From Thermodesulfobacteriota bacterium (lineage in GTDB: Bacteria > Desulfobacterota > WTBG01 > JAGOGO01), in assembly GCA_026625185.1 (NCBI GenBank), contig CP113000.1, forward strand, positions 1,035,622 through 1,067,621: a stretch of 32,000 nt of DNA. The letters run 5' to 3'. Position numbers and translations under genes: made by a program. Below, in pieces: positions 3,944 through 14,653 of this stretch (position 1 is the stretch's first letter; each line of letters begins with the position of its first letter). The notes under the pieces were generated by a model. It was not told where the DNA came from, searched no databases, and saw only the letters and a list, made by a program, of their open reading frames with translations.

Positions 3944-4945
3944 ATGCCTCAATTAAGACAAGATCCCACAACGAAAGAGTGGGTTATCATTGCTGCAGAG
4001 CGTTCAAAGCGACCCCACGATTTTATAAAAGCGAAGACTTTGATCGAAAAACCCCCCTATAAAGAAGACTGCCCCTTCTGTCAGGGAAATGAGCATCTCA
4101 CACCTCATGAGTCTCTTGCCTATCGAAGCGGGGGTCTGGCAGACAGTAAAGGATGGTGGGTAAGGGTCATTCCTAATAAATTCCCCGCCCTCTCCCCAGA
4201 GGGGAGCTTGGAGAGAGAAGAGACGTGGTTTTTCAGGATGATGGATGGAGTGGGAATCCATGAAGTGGTGATCGAAAGCCCCATCCATAACCAACTCCTT
4301 CCCCTGATGGAGGATAAACAGGTGGAGGAGGTCCTTCTCGCCTATCGTGAAAGGTATCTCGCATTAAGAGAAGACCCCAGAATCAAATTGATCATCGTCT
4401 TTAAAAACCATGGGGAGGCCGCTGGGACATCACTGGACCACACCCATTCCCAACTCGTTGGAACTACGGTCGTCCCATCCAATATTCGAAAAAAATTAGA
4501 AGAGGCAGCTCGATATTATGATGACCACGGGAGGTGTGTCTATTGCGATTCAATTAAAGAGGAACTTAAGTTGGGGAAGAGGATCGTGATGGATACCGAG
4601 AGATTTATTGTCCTCCAATCCTTTGCATCCCGATCTCCCTTTGAGACCTGGATCATTCCCAAAGAGCATCAGGCCTCTTTCGGTTTAATCTCCATGGAGG
4701 ATTCAAAGAGGTTTGCAAAGGTCTTAAAGACAACCTTATTTAAACTCTATTCCAAGCTGAACAATCCCGATTACAACTATGTCATCCATACCGCCCCCAT
4801 TAAGGATGAGCAAGAAGATTACTACCATTGGCATCTTCAGATTATCCCAAGACTGACTACCCCCGCTGGATTTGAAATGGGATCCGGCATTTATATCAAC
4901 GTTTCCTTTCCCGAGGAGACGGCTCAATTCCTGAGGGAAGATTAA
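3944..4945 (+). CDS. galT: galactose-1-phosphate uridylyltransferase family enzyme (HIT superfamily, GalT-like nucleotidyltransferase)
   Basis: N-terminal zinc motif CPFCQGNE, HEVVIESP, and the HIT/GalT active-site H-x-H-x-Q in LDHTHSQL. At 333 aa it is typical of type-1 GalT. The substrate (UDP-hexose or ADP-glucose phosphorylase-like) cannot be decided from sequence. Confidence 0.8.
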   Translation: MPQLRQDPTTKEWVIIAAERSKRPHDFIKAKTLIEKPPYKEDCPFCQGNEHLTPHESLAYRSGGLADSKGWWVRVIPNKFPALSPEGSLEREETWFFRMMDGVGIHEVVIESPIHNQLLPLMEDKQVEEVLLAYRERYLALREDPRIKLIIVFKNHGEAAGTSLDHTHSQLVGTTVVPSNIRKKLEEAARYYDDHGRCVYCDSIKEELKLGKRIVMDTERFIVLQSFASRSPFETWIIPKEHQASFGLISMEDSKRFAKVLKTTLFKLYSKLNNPDYNYVIHTAPIKDEQEDYYHWHLQIIPRLTTPAGFEMGSGIYINVSFPEETAQFLRED

Positions 4946-10000: not shown

Positions 10001-10013
10001 TAGCGGTTCTCCT

Positions 10014-10320
10014 TTGTTGATAAAATGGTTCATTACCAGACCTTTTCTACTGAAGGTATCGTAAGATTCGGCAAAATCTATCTGGGCCTGCCTGCCCACC
10101 TCCTTTCCCAATACCTCAACTTCTCCGAGAAGGGTCCAAATCCCTCCAATATCTTTCCTCCCTGAATAAATCGAAACCTAATACGATAATGCCCATAACC
10201 AGCAGGATATGAATGAATCCGCCCAACGTGTGCCCGCTCACTAATCCCGGCAGCCAAAAAAATACGATAATCACAAATACGGTCCAAAGCATGCTCGACT
10301 TCTTTCTGAGAACAGAATTC
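10014..10320. repeat. diverged 307-bp direct repeat, copy 1 (paralogue of 14347-14653)
   Basis: Alignable by eye over its whole length with 14347-14653. It is near-identical over TTTGTTG.TAAAATGGTTCATTAC...CTGAAGGTATCGTAAGATTCGGCAAAATCT and more diverged elsewhere. Confidence 0.75.
10116..10292 (-). CDS. lmo0937-family small membrane protein (copy 1, 58 aa)
   Basis: From ATG 10292: MLWTVFVIIVFFWLPGLVSGHTLGGFIHILLVMGIIVLGFDLF... This is the two-helix pattern with G-x-GG-x-IH-x-LL typical of the lmo0937 family. The ORF-track version (10340) starts further upstream. Confidence 0.6.
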   Translation of the reverse strand: MLWTVFVIIVFFWLPGLVSGHTLGGFIHILLVMGIIVLGFDLFREERYWRDLDPSRRS

Positions 10321-10409
10321 GTCCACCCATTTAAGTTCACTTTGGGGGGCCATTAAGACTTTGGTTTGATTACACCTAAAAAATATTAAAAATGGCAAAA
10401 AGGTAAATA

Positions 10410-10834: not shown

Positions 10835-11428
10835 CTACCCGTTTTTCATTTTTCCATTTTTAATTCTTTTTCCCGCGTAAAATAACCTCAAATATAGAGA
10901 AAATAAGACTATCACTAATATACTCAACCCTAACCATACCCACCGGAACCAGCCCCGAAAGAAATACATAAGGGTTTGGCCTAAAAAGTATGCCGGAGCT
11001 AGGACAACCGCAGCCCACACCAGACAATTTAAGGCTTCATAACACATAAAACGAGAAAAGGGGAAACTTGTCATTCCAAAACCCAGGGCCCCGATGATTC
11101 GCATACCGTAAAGATACTGAAGGATAAAAATGGCGGTCTTTGGCCTTGTCAGAATTATTTTGTTAATCACTTCCAGCCGGCCTTTGATTTTTTCCTTTCT
11201 AGTCAAGAAACTTCTCATCCCGAAAATTCTACCAATGAAAAACCAGAATAAATGGCCTGACCATCCTCCAAAAGAGGCACTTAACCAGACCCCTAAAGGC
11301 TTCAACAGGCCAGCAGCACTTAAAATGCCTGCAGTTATTAGGACCGTCTCCCCCTCATAAAAAGTGCCCCCGAAGACAGCTAACAAGCCATATTTCCTAA
11401 GTATTGTTTGGAGGGTCGCAAATTCCAA
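10835..11428 (-). CDS. DedA family membrane protein
   Basis: YGLLAVFGGTFYEGETVLITAGILSAAG matches the DedA (SNARE-associated) N-terminal signature, and there are several TM segments. The start is the TTG called by the ORF track. Confidence 0.85.
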   Translation of the reverse strand: MEFATLQTILRKYGLLAVFGGTFYEGETVLITAGILSAAGLLKPLGVWLSASFGGWSGHLFWFFIGRIFGMRSFLTRKEKIKGRLEVINKIILTRPKTAIFILQYLYGMRIIGALGFGMTSFPFSRFMCYEALNCLVWAAVVLAPAYFLGQTLMYFFRGWFRWVWLGLSILVIVLFSLYLRLFYAGKRIKNGKMKNG

Positions 11429-11780
11429 TGGTTTATTTATTATAACAATTAGGTTTCAGGACACTAAAAGCCACTTCCACAGAGATAAAAATTTAGGTAA
11501 TTCTCAAGATTTTGCCAGCAAATTACAGATATACTGAGCGGGCATAATAAACAATGAGTGTTTTCTGTTATTATACCGAAACTGAGATGTTTAATGTGAA
11601 AGGTTTATTGCATTTTTCACAGCGGAATTCTTATGTAGGCATCGTATGTTTTCCTTTTTCAATTGAGCCTTTTAAACTCTTATACTGTAAAAACAAAATA
11701 ACTATCGGGTATCGATCCGAACTTGTACCCGTAGGTGAAAGTTATGGCCTTCCAGCCAGTTCGATAAGTTGTCAGGGCTG

Positions 11781-11898
11781 ACCAGCAGAATTTAGTTTTT
11801 ATGTTTCCGTAAAAACCAAATTCTGCTGGTTGCCTCCTTTAATCGTGAAGAATATAAAGAGTTATCCACAACTCAACCCTAAACGAAAAAGGAGGCAA
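11781..11898 (+). promoter_or_regulatory. structured transposase leader: long hairpin plus anti-Shine-Dalgarno pairing
   Basis: Hairpin ACCAGCAGAATTTAGTTTTT 11781-11800 / AAAAACCAAATTCTGCTGGT 11811-11830 (20-bp stem, one mismatch, 10-nt loop). TTGCCTCCTTT 11830-11840 is the perfect reverse complement of AAAGGAGGCAA 11888-11898, which contains the transposase SD. Confidence 0.5.
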
Positions 11899-11899
11899 A

Positions 11900-12943
11900 A
11901 TGAAATTTTACAACCAGCTACACCAATATTACTGCGGCATCGATCTGCATGCCAGAAAAATGTACGTCTGTATTCTCGATCAAAAAGGCAAAACAATGGT
12001 TCATGAAAACATCAAAACTGACCCTGAACTGTTTTTTCAACTGATTTCTCCCTATCTGGAGAATATCGTTGTGGGTGTTGAATGCGTATTCTGCTGGTAC
12101 TGGGTTTCAGATTTGTGCGCCAAGCATAAAATCCCTTTTGTTCTCGGTCATGCATTATATATGAAAGCCATCCACGGGGGAAAGACGAAAAATGATAAAA
12201 TTGATTCCTACAAAATTGCCTTATTGCTTAAAGGTGGAAATTTCCCGACAGCCTATCCGTATCCGGCTAAGTGGCGTGCTACCAGGGATCTATTAAGACG
12301 GAGGATGTATCTGGTCCACAGGTGCGGCGAATTGGTCGCCCATATCCAGAATACCAATACGCAATACAATCTGCCGGCTTTTAATAAAAAACTCTCTCGC
12401 AAATACAACCATGCCGGCGTGGCCGAACAGTTTGAGAATCCGGAAGTTCGCAAAAGCGTCGAGGTGGATCTTGCCATGATCGCATCCCTCAATCAAATCC
12501 TCAATCAGCTCGAATGGCATATCGAAAAAACCGCTGAACAGCATGATTACCACACTCTGTACTTACTCCGGTCGATCCCCGGTGTCGGCCTGATCCTGGC
12601 GCCGGTCATGCTTTACGAAATTAAAGATATCAAACGCTTTCCCTCAGTCCAGGATTTTTCTTCCTATGCCCGGTTGATTAAACCGGTCAAAACATCAGAC
12701 GGTAAATGGGCCGGTAAATCAAACGGCAAAATCGGAAACCACCATCTGAAATGGGCATGCAATGAGGCGGCGATCCTCATGCTCAGGGAATCCGAAAAAG
12801 CCAAACAATATGTGGCAAAACTCGAACGAAAATACAATAAAAGTAAAGCCCTGGGTATCTTCACCCACAAAATCGGCAGAGCGGTTTATTTTATTCTCAA
12901 AAACAAAGAGGCTTTTAATATGGAAAAATTCTTCAGCCAATGA
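11900..12943 (+). CDS. IS110 family transposase (DEDD/RuvC-like recombinase)
   Basis: N-terminus YYCGIDLHARKMYVCILDQKGK (the first catalytic Asp context of IS110-family enzymes). C-terminal Transposase_20-like region SIPGVGLILAPVMLYEIKDIKRFPSVQDFSSYARL...GNHHLKWACNEAA. SD AAAGGAGG upstream of the ATG. Confidence 0.95.
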   Translation: MKFYNQLHQYYCGIDLHARKMYVCILDQKGKTMVHENIKTDPELFFQLISPYLENIVVGVECVFCWYWVSDLCAKHKIPFVLGHALYMKAIHGGKTKNDKIDSYKIALLLKGGNFPTAYPYPAKWRATRDLLRRRMYLVHRCGELVAHIQNTNTQYNLPAFNKKLSRKYNHAGVAEQFENPEVRKSVEVDLAMIASLNQILNQLEWHIEKTAEQHDYHTLYLLRSIPGVGLILAPVMLYEIKDIKRFPSVQDFSSYARLIKPVKTSDGKWAGKSNGKIGNHHLKWACNEAAILMLRESEKAKQYVAKLERKYNKSKALGIFTHKIGRAVYFILKNKEAFNMEKFFSQ

Positions 12944-12953
12944 TCATGGGAAT

Positions 12954-13090
12954 AAGGATGCCAGCTTGTTGCCTAACTGAGATTCCATAGGCGGACCTGA
13001 TTCTCTTTATTTACTGCTTGCAGCTTGACTGCTAAAAAGAGTGGGCCAAATGCCTCTAAGCTCATGGCGCTTGATTGGCGGCATCCTTTT
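12954..13090 (+). ncRNA. candidate IS-encoded guide RNA domain (bridge/seek RNA-like), directly 3' of the transposase stop
   Basis: A 9-bp closing stem AAGGATGCC 12954-12962 / GGCATCCTT 13080-13088 encloses ~117 nt with several internal hairpins (for example CTCTTT 13002-13007 / AAAGAG 13036-13041, GCCAA 13045-13049 / TTGGC 13075-13079). It ends in a T-run to 13090. No covariance-model test was possible. Confidence 0.3.
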
Positions 13091-13494
13091 TCCCATTTAC
13101 CGATAAATGATGCTTGATCTGACGATCTCCGTGTTCTGCCCCTTGCCCGAGTGACAACCTAACTGGATGGATCTCTGATCCAAGCCGCTTTACTTTGACT
13201 GCGCCGGGATAAGGGTACCGAAATATATTCTGAAGCTGCCCAATGACAGCAAACTGATTGTCAAAGAGCTTCTTTGGTATTTCAGTAAATCTCTATAGAT
13301 GTTTGGTGCAGACGCGCTTTAGCGTTCTGACCCTCGCGACCGAAGACGCAAGTCCGAACCATAGGGTCGTTTGTCAAGGCTTCATTAACTTTTGGACGGA
13401 TAATATCTTTTTTATTTCTCTCTTTCCGATCTACAGGAGGAGTTTTCCCCTGACAACCGAAGGCCATATAGAGGTTGGGCTGACTCATGCGTTG

Positions 13495-14211
13495 CTAATC
13501 GTTTCTGAAGTCATCTAGTTCTTTCTTCTCTGCCTGCCTTTGCAGTATGTCTCGCACAGCCAAGGCCGCCCTGTCTTCTGCGGCCAGTCTGCTAGCAATG
13601 TCAGCAATTGCTGTCTCATAGTCTGCTTGAAACTTAACCGGAACTTTGCAGTGCACATCATGTGTGAATTCCGCCCAGGCGTCTTGAAGTTTCGTTCGAA
13701 TCTGGATTTCGCAGATCATTGTCTCCTCGACGACAGTGCGTCGCTTTCTGTAGGTCTTGACACGATCAAAAGAAACGTCTGCCAGAAGGTGTATCGCTCT
13801 GTATCCAGTGCGCTTCGGATCTCTGATGAAGTCTTCCAAAGACCGCGGTTTGATGCGGAACTGCTTAGTAGCCTGAATGTATTCGAGCATTCCGTAGCAA
13901 TCATCAACAAACCAGCAAATCACTCTGGCGCCAATAAGGTCTGTGATAACTTCGGTCGGATAGTGAAACATGGGCCAGTCCGTCTTCTCGAGTTTCCTGA
14001 GAAAACTCGTCAATGACTTAACCCTAGCGTCCACGTTAACAGCTTCACGAGGGAGCTCGTTTTCTACTGTGTAAGCCGAAGCCAGGCGACCGAGCCTGAT
14101 TTTGAGAACTTGGCTTATCGATTCCAATTCCTCGCCGTACCAATGGAAAAATCTAAGGGTTCTTTCGGTTAGGAAGTCTATCCGTTCCTTTCGGGTTCTG
14201 TACTTGGCCAT
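13495..14211 (-). CDS. RelA/SpoT-domain protein (stand-alone small alarmone synthetase homologue)
   Basis: Synthetase-domain motifs occur in the canonical order: RVKSLTSFLRKL, DLIGARVICWF, GYRAIHLL, CEIQIRTKLQDAWAEFTHD. There is no HD hydrolase, TGS or ACT domain; 238 aa. Confidence 0.85.
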   Translation of the reverse strand: MAKYRTRKERIDFLTERTLRFFHWYGEELESISQVLKIRLGRLASAYTVENELPREAVNVDARVKSLTSFLRKLEKTDWPMFHYPTEVITDLIGARVICWFVDDCYGMLEYIQATKQFRIKPRSLEDFIRDPKRTGYRAIHLLADVSFDRVKTYRKRRTVVEETMICEIQIRTKLQDAWAEFTHDVHCKVPVKFQADYETAIADIASRLAAEDRAALAVRDILQRQAEKKELDDFRND

Positions 14212-14346
14212 GTCTTATTCCCACCAGGTACTTGCGAATGTCTAACAAGGGATGACAGGAAGAAAAAATAGGAAATAAATCAATAGTTAACTTTCTCTTG
14301 TTGTCCCCTGTTATATCCTGTTATGGTAGCAAGACCTCTCTGTAAA

Positions 14347-14653
14347 TTTGTTGGTAAAATGGTTCATTACGAAACCTTTTTTCTGAAGGTATCGTAAGAT
14401 TCGGCAAAATCTTTCTTGACCTGCTGACCACCTCCTTTCCAAATACCCTCACCTTCTCCGGTAAGGGTCTAAAGTGCTACGATCCTTTTCGTCCCTGAAA
14501 AAGTCGGACAGCTAATACGATTATTGCGAGGGCCAGCAGGATATGAACGACTCCCCCCATCGAGTAGCCACTTAACATTCCCAGACCCCACAAAACTAAG
14601 AGAATCACACTTATGGTCCAAAGCATGGTCGACTCCTCTCTGAGGACAGAATC
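14347..14653. repeat. diverged 307-bp direct repeat, copy 2 (paralogue of 10014-10320)
   Basis: See copy 1. Same length, same orientation, and it contains the second lmo0937-family ORF. Confidence 0.75.
14477..14626 (-). CDS. lmo0937-family small membrane protein (copy 2, 49 aa)
   Basis: Absent from the ORF track because it is under 60 aa. ATG 14626 is preceded by the SD GAGGAG. Translation: MLWTISVILLVLWGLGMLSGYSMGGVVHILLALAIIVLAVRLFQGRKGS. Confidence 0.6.
   Translation of the reverse strand: MLWTISVILLVLWGLGMLSGYSMGGVVHILLALAIIVLAVRLFQGRKGS

What the first reader, a model, noticed from the sequence alone, without database searches (positions are those of the whole stretch)
11744..13467. 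IS110-family element with a ~500-nt structured non-coding right end: candidate bridge/seek guide RNA system
The DEDD recombinase ORF (11900..12943) sits between very asymmetric non-coding ends, ~120-155 nt on the left and ~500 nt on the right. Ten nt after the stop codon, a 9-bp stem (12954-12962 / 13080-13088) closes a ~117-nt multi-hairpin domain and is followed by a T-run, which looks like a discrete ~137-nt RNA. More hairpins follow, for example GACCCT 13329-13334 / AGGGTC 13363-13368. Work published in 2024 on IS621/IS110 bridge RNAs and IS1111 seekRNAs showed that these recombinases are programmed by an element-encoded two-loop ncRNA that base-pairs with both target and donor DNA. In IS1111-type elements that RNA lies 3' of the recombinase gene. 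This copy has the matching architecture, and its RNA, guide segments and target are uncharacterised. If intact, it would be a reprogrammable RNA-guided recombinase.
Basis: partly seen in the sequence, partly recalled or inferred. Interest (0 to 1): 0.75.

Follow-up and report, generated by a model that had tools for sequence, protein, structure and literature searches.

The report
IS1111-type insertion sequence with guide RNA
This is a single, probably immobilised copy of an IS110/IS1111-family insertion sequence whose 530-nt tail encodes a large, conserved two-domain RNA that comparative evidence says guides the recombinase to its DNA sites, so it is a new member of a system described in 2024, not a new kind.

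Summary
ORF 11900-12943 is an intact DEDD/IS110 recombinase, flanked by 156 nt on the left and 533 nt on the right, and the element runs to 13476, not 13467. The right end is conserved in more than 60 copies from relatives down to about 50% protein identity. It holds two RNA domains, 12945-13098 and 13128-13318, with strong compensatory covariation on the transposase strand only.

Three segments track DNA:
- 13295-13303 copies the right-end tip and co-varies with it across subfamilies.
- GCCUAA (12971-12976) is complementary to the right flank TT+RKGY (Fisher p=7e-6).
- A hypervariable triplet (13068-13070) just 5' of UUGAUUGG matches the left flank.

This fits an IS1111-type seekRNA/bridge RNA: target-reading 5' domain, right-end-reading 3' domain.

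Corrections:
- The "T-run" is the 3' arm of the closing stem, not a terminator. The 137-nt unit is one domain.
- This copy lacks the family's invariant left tip (GATAATAGTT). Its -35-like TTGACA reads CTGACA. It is single-copy, so probably immobile.
- It sits antisense in the 5' core of an attC-like site behind a cassette-like relA gene.

It is a new member of a known kind, of modest interest.

The parts
11740..11752 (+). Truncated left end. AGTT (11740-43) is the remnant of the left extension, followed by the left subterminal inverted repeat ATGGCCTTC (11744-52). The family-invariant tip (T)TGATAATAGTT is reduced to AGTT.
   Evidence: All other copies read (W)TTGATAMTAGTT-ATGGCC, including the 97%-identical P0001 copies. 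Homology of close relatives starts at 11740.
11780..11898 (+). Left-end leader structure. It has a 21-bp hairpin (11781-11801/11810-11830) and an anti-Shine-Dalgarno stem (TTGCCTCCTTT 11830-40 pairing with AAAGGAGGCAA 11888-98) that would hide the transposase ribosome-binding site.
   Evidence: Inverted repeats I1 and I17. The RNA fold of 11744-11910 scores z=-7.4, with 0 of 200 shuffles as good. The function is inferred.
11900..12943 (+). DEDD recombinase (transposase) gene, 347 aa, full length.
   Evidence: PF01548 plus PF02371. It is 97% identical to P0001, and thousands of 347-aa homologues exist. The catalytic-type residues are present: D15, E61, D99, D102 and S266 in KTSDG. S266 aligns with the SG serine of IS621.
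12945..13098 (+). RNA domain 1, the proposed target-binding module. A 17-bp closing stem (12946-62/13080-96) encloses an internal loop and distal helices.
   Evidence: Covariance model R2 scores 153.7 bits in the window and matches 23 relatives, E down to 4e-38, + strand only. On covariation, 36 of 47 pairs change on both sides, 0 of 500 shuffles reach the observed score, and slid controls score 4-6 times lower.
12968..12976 (+). 5' strand of the domain-1 loop, GUUGCCUAA. It is the proposed right-target guide and pairs with the top strand TT+RKGY. In the window, GCCUAA pairs with TTGGGC in 6 of 6 positions, one of them a G.U pair.
   Evidence: RNA position 3 (C or A) tracks flank position 4 (G or T): 30/11 against 5/23, Fisher p=7e-6 over 76 sites. 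Within-clade permutation gives p=0.0004-0.005.
13063..13078 (+). 3' strand of the domain-1 loop, CAUGGCGC-UU-GAUUGG. A hypervariable stretch is followed by the invariant UGAUUGG. It is the proposed left-target guide, reading the same sense as the top strand next to the TT core.
   Evidence: The 3 nt just 5' of UU (13068-13070 in the window) match the element's own left flanks at 0.56/0.46/0.56, against 0.28/0.29/0.41 for permuted pairs. Within-clade p=0.0003-0.002. The nucleotide before GAU follows the left junction (T or G) in 11 of 13 subfamilies by my reading.
13128..13318 (+). RNA domain 2, the proposed donor (right-end) binding module. Closing helices are 13130-33/13313-16 and 13135-39/13308-12, with three internal hairpins.
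   Evidence: Model R1 scores 203 bits in the window. Full-length matches occur in 26 further places, E down to 1e-4, + strand only. 46 of 61 pairs change on both sides and 0 of 500 shuffles reach the observed score.
13293..13306 (+). Donor-end guide block CUAUAGAUGUUUGG. It has the same sequence as the right-end tip plus flank (CATATAGAKGTT-RKG), so it would pair with the bottom strand.
   Evidence: The block is nearly invariant in the close family. It co-varies with the right-end tip across subfamilies:
- ATAGAT / ATAGAK
- ATAAAT / ATAAAT (L017)
- ATGAGT / ATGAGT (L055)
- ATATGT / ATATGT (L070, L050)
- ATAGGT / ATAGGG (L075)
- ATAGGT / ATAAGK (Holophagales; G.T wobble)
13327..13379 (+). Domain 3, a conserved hairpin (CUGAC..GUCAAG; GACCC 13329-33 / GGGUC 13364-68) of unknown role.
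   Evidence: It is conserved in alignment A1. The pairs mostly vary on one side only, so covariation is weak.
13450..13455 (+). -35-like hexamer of the right end. It reads CTGACA here but TTGAC(A/C/T) in almost every other copy.
   Evidence: Alignment A1 and the right-end tables. With the GATAMT at the left tip it could form a junction promoter in the circle, as in ISEc11 (PMC11187229). The spacing is 18-21 nt depending on the true junction, which was not observed.
13459..13476 (+). Right end. It consists of the subterminal inverted repeat GAAGGCCAT (13459-67), the extension ATAGAGG (13468-74) and the TT core (13475-76).
   Evidence: Homology to all full copies ends at 13476 +/- a few nt. Ends were fixed from identical copies in four genomes. 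The repeat co-varies with its left partner: TTC/GAA, TCC/GGA, GCG/CGC.
13474..13494 (.). Insertion site. GTT|GGGC is the complement of GCCCAAC, the 5' core of an attC-like site that follows the relA-type gene (13495-14211, - strand).
   Evidence: Uninterrupted sites in four metagenome contigs read ...GAATTGTT|GGGCTGACTCATG (three) or ...ATAACTT|GGGCTGACTCATG (L095), and homology to the window starts at 13474/5.

Best explanation
The region is one copy of an IS1111-type member of the IS110 family, spanning 11740-13476.

Shown:
- It encodes a DEDD/serine recombinase.
- The 533-nt 3' non-coding end holds two conserved, structured RNA domains on the same strand as the gene. No promoter-like or terminator-like site lies inside it on that strand.

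Inferred mechanism, by analogy with ISEc11/ISKpn4 seekRNAs and the IS621 bridge RNA:
- The domains are most likely cut from the transposase transcript, and the RNA stays bound to the recombinase.
- Domain 1 reads the target. Its 5' loop strand (G-Y-M-Y-A-A) pairs with the top strand of TT+RKGY to the right of the crossover. Its 3' loop strand (3-5 variable nt + UU) pairs with the bottom strand just left of the TT core. This is the order reported for IS1111 seekRNAs.
- Domain 2 reads the donor. Its 3' strand (AUAGAUGUU) pairs with the bottom strand of the right-end tip.
- The 9-bp subterminal repeats and the invariant GATAMT left tip complete the donor site.
- Excision would join the ends into a circle. 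Recombination at the shared TT then inserts the element without a duplication.

This particular copy:
- It inserted antisense into the 5' core of an attC-like site behind a cassette-like relA gene.
- It later lost 10 nt of its left tip. A slip between two AGTT repeats would account for this.
- It also carries a T-to-C change in the -35-like hexamer.
- The recombinase ORF and both RNA domains are intact, but the element itself is probably stuck.
For: - Protein: domains, catalytic-type residues, and a very large family of 347-aa homologues.
- Ends: fixed from identical multi-copy elements in four genomes. The subterminal repeats co-vary. The right non-coding end is longer than the left, 533 against 156 nt.
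- The whole right end is conserved at about the same level as the gene, with no conserved ORF.
- RNA structure: compensatory covariation in both domains, with shuffled and slid controls far lower. Many conserved G.U pairs would be A.C on the other strand.
- Covariance-model hits occur only on the + strand, immediately 3' of the gene, in all relatives tested.
- Guide-DNA links: right-end tip, right flank (Fisher p=7e-6) and left flank. The domain-2 5' strand shows no such link within the clade, which serves as an internal control.
- TT lies on both junctions: 33/43 and 43/43 for the two T positions on the left, 42/43 and 43/43 on the right.
- Defective left end.
- Single locus in all 6-8 contigs that carry the gene.
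- Empty sites.
- Published framework: PMC11187229, PMC11208160, PMC11208158.
Against: - No transcript, RNA-protein or recombination data exist for this family.
- Rfam has no match. That is weak evidence, because I do not know whether bridge or seek RNAs are in Rfam.
- Target complementarity is short. A search for a contiguous guide-target duplex of 7-11 nt was no better than chance, and the left-flank signal adds only about 0.6 of 10 positions.
- No guide for the left end (GATAMTAGTT) was found, and position M does not co-vary with any RNA column.
- The window's own left flank (GAAAG) does not match its proposed left guide (CGC).
- No circle junction or tandem copy was found in metagenome contigs. 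The crossover dinucleotide (TT, or KG two bases upstream) and the junction promoter are therefore not settled.
- The RNA region is 2-3 times longer than any characterised seekRNA or bridge RNA, and domain 3 has no assigned role.
Confidence: 0.75

Rival explanations
1. The conserved 3' region works as DNA, not RNA. It would be a set of recombinase-binding sites that includes an internal right-end-like site (13294-13303). The element would then be modular, as in ISPpu9 with its MITE-like ssr9 module: tnp plus domains 1-2 as one unit and the last ~170 nt as another. The co-variation between the internal block and the true right end would arise because both are ends read by the same protein or guide.
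For: - The internal block has the sequence of the right-end tip.
- ISPpu9 shows that internal end-like boxes and several kinds of circle exist in this family (PMC12288879).
- L028 carries a tandem duplication of the last ~200 nt.
- L064 duplicates domain 2.
- L044 diverges inside the block.
Against: - No copy among more than 60 ends at the internal block.
- No left-end-like sequence or inverted repeat follows the block.
- The block sits just 5' of the 3' strand of a co-varying closing helix, inside a structure with 46 of 61 pairs changed on both sides. A DNA-site model does not predict that.
- Conserved G.U pairs give the structure a strand polarity.
- No solo copies of the last 170 nt were seen in the loci.
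Confidence: 0.1
2. The structured RNA is real but regulatory, not a guide. It could be a 3'-UTR element that stabilises the mRNA, controls translation or serves as an antisense target, with site choice made by the protein and by DNA hairpins or attC-like structure.
For: - Target complementarity is short and the target logo is weak.
- Many insertions lie just 3' of GC-rich hairpins.
- The left end already carries an obvious translational control structure.
Against: - Three independent RNA segments track the DNA of the element's own ends and flanks.
- The architecture matches published IS1111 seekRNAs: two loop strands, top-strand match 5' of bottom-strand match, located 3' of tnp (PMC11187229).
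Confidence: 0.08
3. This copy is still mobile. On this view the short left end (AGTT-ATGGCC) is a tolerated variant and not a lesion.
For: - The ORF, both RNA domains, both subterminal repeats and the right tip are intact, and the RNA models score at the top of the family.
- The observed left junction GAAAG-TT-ATGG still has TT next to the repeat.
Against: - Every other copy keeps GATAMT at the tip, including those with 97% identical protein and relatives at 50% identity.
- The exact protein occurs at only this one locus in all 6-8 contigs that carry it, from several samples.
- The -35-like hexamer is also mutated.
Confidence: 0.1
4. The 3' region encodes a small protein, for example the 68-aa ORF 13282-13488 (-) that gene callers annotate.
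For: Gene callers list a 68-aa product there in several contigs.
Against: - The ORF is absent from the closest relatives.
- The longest ORFs differ in strand, frame and position from one homologue to the next.
- Indels are not in multiples of three.
Confidence: 0.01

Closest known systems
IS1111-family elements with a 3' seekRNA (ISEc11, ISKpn4, ISPst6, ISPa11; Siddiquee et al. 2024, PMC11187229)
   Same: - A DEDD transposase of 330-350 aa.
- Subterminal inverted repeats with short extensions.
- The long non-coding region lies downstream of tnp.
- No target duplication.
- RNA loop strands match the top strand (5') and the bottom strand (3') of a short target and overlap at the crossover.
- -35-like and -10-like hexamers sit on opposite ends.
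   Different: - The conserved RNA region here is about 375 nt for domains 1 and 2, or about 430-530 nt with domain 3. Their RNAs are 82-154 nt.
- The target and right-end reading segments sit in two separately closed domains.
- The serine motif reads L-xx-P-xxx-S-D-G rather than GL-P----S(t)G.
- None of this has been tested experimentally.
- The relationship of this protein to theirs was not measured.
IS621 / ISCro4 bridge RNA (IS110 group; PMC11208160, PMC11208158)
   Same: - A two-loop guide logic, with one module for the target and one for the donor.
- Each loop strand carries or abuts the core.
- The segments continue into the partner's sequence in a way that resembles handshake guides. 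The domain-2 block continues as UUUGG, like the right flank. The domain-1 3' strand continues as GAU, like the left tip.
   Different: - The RNA is 3' of the gene, not 5'.
- Strand polarity is reversed.
- The subterminal repeats are long.
- Only the C-terminal domain is detectably similar (E=1.8e-5).
- The core is TT (or KG), not CT.
- No left-end guide was identified.
IS1111-attC group (ISPa21, ISPst6, ISKpn4; Tetu & Holmes 2008, as summarised in PMC3001079)
   Same: This copy lies near the 5' end of an attC-like site and antisense to the cassette gene. That is the position and orientation described for the group.
   Different: - Family-wide, the flanks show no enrichment for the inverse attC core.
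- No integron integrase lies in the window.
- The best plasmid-borne relatives are at most 56% identical and come from marine gammaproteobacteria and Ca. Manganitrophus, not the clinical integron elements.
- Common ancestry with the group was not tested.
ISPpu9 with MITEPpu9/ssr9 (PMC12288879)
   Same: It is an IS110-family element with extra RNA-coding sequence 3' of tnp and internal end-like boxes.
   Different: - In ISPpu9 the module is dispensable and occurs solo.
- Here the whole 3' end is conserved in every intact copy and no solo modules were seen.

Membership tests
IS110 family (DEDD recombinase insertion sequences) | N-terminal RuvC-like DEDD domain and C-terminal Tnp domain with a catalytic serine | tested here: met
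   PF01548 at 3.4e-16 and PF02371 at 1.5e-14. D15, E61, D99, D102 and S266 are present. The C-terminal domain aligns to IS621 with the serine matched.
IS110 family (DEDD recombinase insertion sequences) | Site-specific insertion with a short core shared by both junctions and no target duplication | tested here: met
   TT lies at both junctions in 43 sites each, and the flanks are otherwise unrelated. The empty site GTT|GGGC matches the right junction. It is unresolved whether the crossover is at TT or at KG.
IS1111 group | Subterminal inverted repeats of 7-17 bp with short terminal extensions | tested here: met
   ATGGCCTTC (11744-52) pairs with GAAGGCCAT (13459-67). The repeats co-vary in relatives. 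The extensions are about 12 nt on the left (family consensus) and 9 nt on the right.
IS1111 group | Longer non-coding region downstream of tnp, and a transposase of 330-350 aa | tested here: met
   533 nt against 156 nt, and 347 aa.
IS1111 group | GL-P----S(t)G motif, and placement in the IS1111 clade of the transposase tree | tested here: inconclusive
   The motif here is ARLIKPVKTSDG, with different spacing. No tree with ISfinder references could be built.
seekRNA / bridge RNA | Conserved structured RNA in the long non-coding end, on the transposase strand | tested here: met
   Covariation in both domains. Model hits are + strand only.
seekRNA / bridge RNA | Loop segments complementary to both strands of the target | tested here: met
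   Right flank: Fisher p=7e-6, within-clade p=0.0004-0.005. Left flank: p=0.0003-0.002, a small effect confined to 3 nt next to TT. No long duplex was found.
seekRNA / bridge RNA | Loop segments complementary to both halves of the donor (bridge RNA definition) | tested here: inconclusive
   A guide for the right-end half was found and co-varies. No guide for the left-end half was found (and inspection).
seekRNA / bridge RNA | RNA is expressed, binds the recombinase and is required for transposition | not testable with these tools
   No expression or biochemical data are available.
seekRNA / bridge RNA | Match to a curated covariance model | tested here: not met
   An Rfam 15 E-value scan of 11000-14500 found only chance microRNA-like hits to the left-end hairpin. 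I do not know whether any bridge or seek RNA family is in Rfam.
IS1111-attC group | Insertion near the 5' end of attC sites, antisense to the cassette | tested here: inconclusive
   Met for this copy. Not supported family-wide by the inverse-core test: mean best mismatch 2.02 against 2.08 for controls.

The most novel reading that the evidence does not exclude
The family may use a distinct guide-RNA architecture. The conserved RNA region is about 400-500 nt and has three modules. The target-reading loop and the right-end-reading loop sit in separately closed domains, and a third conserved hairpin has no counterpart in the characterised RNAs. Site choice would rest on only about 3 + 2 + 4-7 nt around a TT core, placed next to DNA hairpins or attC-like sites. 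The left end would be recognised by protein and the inverted repeat, not by RNA. In addition, this fixed, end-damaged copy still has an intact recombinase and RNA. It could be retained by the host as a trans-acting RNA-guided recombinase that acts on attC-like sites.
Probability: 0.2. Interest if true: 0.55.

Novelty: new member of a known kind. Interest (0 to 1): 0.35.

Why it matters
RNA-guided IS110/IS1111 recombinases are being developed as programmable tools for inserting DNA. Only a handful of their RNAs have been dissected, mostly from Proteobacteria.

This family is very abundant in Desulfobacterota, Acidobacteriota, Spirochaetia and other anaerobes. Its guide region is unusually large and is cleanly split into two domains. 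Natural variation already points to specific nucleotides that read the right flank, the left flank and the right end.

That gives a ready set of reprogramming experiments in a culturable host with eight identical copies, Desulfosarcina alkanivorans PL12.

The window copy itself matters less. It is a fixed, probably immobile insertion, and it marks a cassette-like relA gene and its attC-like site.

Tried and rejected
- Rfam scan at E<=10 gave nothing relevant.
- Mutual information between the A/C position of the left tip and every RNA column returned only phylogenetic signal.
- A search for a perfect 9-nt duplex between the RNA and 35 reconstructed targets found nothing recurrent.
- A position-weighted scan of the consensus RNA against the target logo, with windows of 7-11 nt and both polarities, was no better than column-shuffled targets. 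The guides therefore had to be sought as element-specific co-variation.
- The domain-2 5' strand was tested against the right flank. It was significant overall but not within clades, so I treat it as a composition artefact.
- I looked for a left-end guide in CCUAACUG, CUUUGAYUG and UGGUGC. The partial matches do not hold in distant relatives.
- A circle junction or tandem copy was sought in metagenome contigs with GGCCATATAGA-N2-8-ATAMTAGTTATGGCC. There were no hits.
- The attC hypothesis for the whole family was tested with the inverse core 35-140 nt upstream. It was no better than shuffled cores.
- An internal sigma-70 promoter or an intrinsic terminator for a separate RNA gene was sought. 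None was found on the + strand.
- A coding reading of the 3' end was rejected.
- A junction promoter TTGACA-N17-GATAMT would fit only if the four bases KGTT were absent from the circle. With a TT core the spacing is 21 nt, so this is left open.
Full report
**What is there.** ORF 11900-12943 (+) is 347 aa and carries the two Pfam domains of IS110-family recombinases. Catalytic-type residues D15, E61, D99, D102 and S266 are present. The serine aligns with the SG serine of the solved IS621 protein, although only the C-terminal domain is detectably similar. The protein belongs to a very large family of 347-aa homologues from metagenomes and from Desulfobacterota MAGs.

**Limits of the element.** I fetched 80 related loci and aligned them to the window. 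Close relatives (85-90% DNA identity) align from 11740 to 13476. Relatives at about 70-75% DNA identity align from the start codon to 13476. The 533 nt after the stop codon are therefore part of the element and are conserved about as well as the gene.

Identical copies within single genomes fix the ends. These are Desulfosarcina alkanivorans (8 copies), Desulfopila (3), a Holophagales MAG (6) and a Spirochaetia MAG (6).
- The left end reads (W)T-GATAMTAGTT-ATGGCCTTC.
- The right end reads CTTGACAACC-GAAGGCCAT-ATAGAKG-TT, followed by a flank that begins RKG.
- The 9-bp subterminal repeats co-vary: TTC/GAA, TCC/GGA, GCG/CGC.
- TT lies on both junctions.

Subterminal repeats, a short left end, a long right end and a 347-aa protein are the published hallmarks of the IS1111 group (PMC11187229; PMC11208160).

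**The 3' end is a structured RNA, not a gene.**
- No ORF is conserved. The 68-aa ORF called on the minus strand is missing from the closest relatives, and the longest ORFs change strand and frame from one homologue to the next.
- A 29-sequence alignment has many invariant blocks, and RNAalifold finds 78 pairs, 35 of them with compensatory changes.
- Realigned by domain, domain 1 (12945-13098) has 28 of 47 pairs changed on both sides. Domain 2 (13128-13318) has 24 of 61. In both, 0 of 500 shuffles reach the observed values, and slid controls score 3-8 times lower.
- Covariance models built from these alignments find full-length matches immediately 3' of the gene, on the gene strand only, in every relative tested with an intact 3' end down to about 50% protein identity. 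The degenerate P0047 copies keep only part of domain 1.
- On those wider alignments, 46 of 61 and 36 of 47 pairs change on both sides.
- Many conserved G.U pairs give the structure a strand polarity.
- No promoter-like or terminator-like site lies inside the element on that strand. This fits processing from the transposase transcript, as proposed for ISEc11.

- The stem is real but is 17 bp (12946-62/13080-96).
- The 'T-run' is its 3' arm. Relatives have CUUCCAG pairing with CUGGAAG at that place.
- The 137-nt unit is therefore a domain, not a terminated transcript.
- The hairpin at 13329-34/13363-68 belongs to a third conserved region with weak covariation.

**Guide segments.** Three RNA segments track DNA.

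1. The nearly invariant block CUAUAGAUGUUUGG (13293-13306) lies just 5' of the 3' strand of the domain-2 closing helix. It has the sequence of the right-end tip plus flank. Where the tip differs, the block differs in the same way. The pairs are AAAT in L017, GAGT in L055, ATGT in the Spirochaetia element and L050, and AGGT/AGGG in L075. A G.T-compatible difference occurs in the Holophagales and Acidobacteriota elements.
2. The 5' strand of the domain-1 loop, G-Y-M-Y-A-A (GCCUAA, 12971-76), is complementary to the right flank TT+RKGY.
   - Elements with GCAUAA sit next to TTAT.
   - Elements with GCCUAA, GUCUAA or GCCCAA sit next to TT(A/G)G.
   - The counts are 30/11 against 5/23, Fisher p=7e-6 over 76 sites.
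   - Permutation within the Desulfobacterota-type clade gives p=0.0004-0.005.
3. The 3' strand of the same loop has a hypervariable stretch just 5' of the invariant UU-GAUUGG. The three nucleotides next to UU match the element's own left flanks about twice as often as permuted pairs (0.56/0.46/0.56 against 0.28/0.29/0.41). Within-clade p=0.0003-0.002.

The equivalent 5' strand of domain 2 shows no link to the flank within clades. This argues against a general composition artefact.

The order, a top-strand match 5' of a bottom-strand match with overlap at the crossover, is the one reported for IS1111 seekRNAs. Both same-sense segments run on into the partner's sequence. The first continues as UUUGG, like the right flank. 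The second continues as GAU, like the left tip. This resembles the handshake guides of IS621.

What I could not find is a guide for the left end. I also found no contiguous guide-target duplex of 7 nt or more that holds family-wide.

**State of this copy.**
- Every other copy keeps GATAMT at the left tip, including those encoding a 97%-identical protein and relatives at 50% identity.
- The window reads GGTGAAAGTT-ATGGCC, which is exactly 10 nt (GATAATAGTT) short.
- If the target was ...GAAAG-TT-GGGC, a normal insertion would create two AGTT repeats 10 bp apart. A slip between them gives the observed sequence. This is an inference.
- The conserved TTGACA of the right end reads CTGACA here (13450-55).
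- The exact protein is found at this one locus only, in 6 contigs from several samples. All 8 contigs that carry the neighbouring relA-type gene also carry the insertion.
- The RNA domains score at the top of their models.

The copy is best seen as a fixed insertion with working parts but a damaged left end.

**Insertion site.**
- Four metagenome contigs carry the neighbouring relA-type gene (88-91% identical) without the element.
- Three of them read ...GAATTGTT|GGGCTGACTCATG and the fourth ...ATAACTT|GGGCTGACTCATG.
- In the gene's orientation the stop codon is followed by GCCCAAC.
- In two contigs about 45 nt of imperfect dyad and then GTTAGGC follow. In a third the distal core reads ATAACCT, and the fourth differs. 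The MFE pairs the cores only in the first type and is not significant. The third contig has a significant internal hairpin (z=-2.5).
- A GTTRRRY-like heptamer lies about 30 nt before the start codon in three of the four contigs and in the window. It departs from the consensus in L094.
- The neighbours differ in every contig.

This is the layout of a gene cassette with an attC-like site. The element sits inside the 5' core and antisense to the gene, which is the position and orientation described for the IS1111-attC group (PMC3001079).

I do not extend this to the whole family. A test for the inverse core upstream of 51 sites was no better than shuffled cores. The window has no integron integrase. 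The left flanks share only a loose YCSGSTNRA-N5-TT logo, often 3' of a GC-rich hairpin.

**Comparison and verdict.** In working principle this looks like an IS1111-type seekRNA/bridge RNA system.

Membership:
- The features of the IS110 family and of the IS1111 group are met, apart from an atypical serine motif and an untested phylogeny.
- For the guide RNA, structure, target matches and a right-end match are supported in silico.
- Expression, binding and requirement for transposition cannot be tested here.

Differences from characterised examples:
- The conserved RNA region is larger, about 375-530 nt against 82-177 nt.
- The two reading functions sit in separately closed domains.
- The target contacts are short.
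- No left-end guide is recognisable.

I rate it a new member of a known kind, of modest interest. The most novel reading still open is a distinct three-module architecture, or host retention of the damaged copy, and it deserves perhaps a one-in-five chance.

Noticed in passing
window 13495-14249 (- strand); loci L093-L096: The RelA_SpoT small alarmone synthetase gene looks like a mobile gene cassette. The same gene (88-91% nt identity) lies between unrelated neighbours in four other contigs. A GTTRRRY-like heptamer sits about 30 nt before the start in three of them and in the window (GTTAGAC there). An attC-like site of about 58 nt (GCCCAAC...GTTAGGC) follows the stop in two, with a third lacking the distal core. 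No integron integrase lies in the window.
   Followed up: partly
window 10013-10318 and 14347-14652: A direct repeat of about 309 nt (79% identity) brackets the DedA/VTT gene, the insertion sequence and the relA gene. Each copy carries a small DUF5670-type ORF (10116-10340 and 14477-14626, both on the - strand).
   Followed up: no
window 11780-11898: The left-end leader folds very stably (z=-7.4). It has a 21-bp hairpin and a stem that pairs TTGCCTCCTTT with the Shine-Dalgarno AAAGGAGGCAA. This is a likely block on translation from read-through transcripts. The long hairpin is specific to this subfamily.
   Followed up: partly
L070-L076 (Spirochaetia MAG OY764868.1, 1.057-1.096 Mb): Five of the six identical copies lie within about 40 kb. 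Four sit next to the same ~40-nt repeat (GCAAGAACCGTGACAAAAGTCAAATCTGCTCCAACT). This suggests an array of repeated target sites, possibly a cassette array.
   Followed up: no
L066 2900-2927 and 4709-4740: One Holophagales copy is flanked on both sides by the same 24-25 nt (CGTTGACTGTCCGGTGGAAGCCCA). On the right this is followed by GGTTGGGC. It is either a duplicated target or an insertion beside a repeated site.
   Followed up: no
L064 4242-4444 and 4957-5159; L028 4374-4767: There are tandem duplications inside the 3' non-coding end. In L064 domain 2 is duplicated. In L028 the last ~200 nt, including the right end, are duplicated.
   Followed up: no
L117-L121 (elements encoding P0047): These copies keep only part of RNA domain 1 (model positions 22-133, 32 bits) and lack domain 2. 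Two called ORFs of 148 and 134 aa follow the transposase gene instead. This is a degenerate or rearranged derivative found at the same locus in five samples.
   Followed up: partly
L044 vs L045, near position 4410: Two 98.6%-identical Desulfatitalea copies diverge exactly inside the donor-guide block (CGATA|ACGT... against CGATA|GATGTTTGG). This could be a rearrangement at the end-like sequence or an assembly chimera.
   Followed up: no
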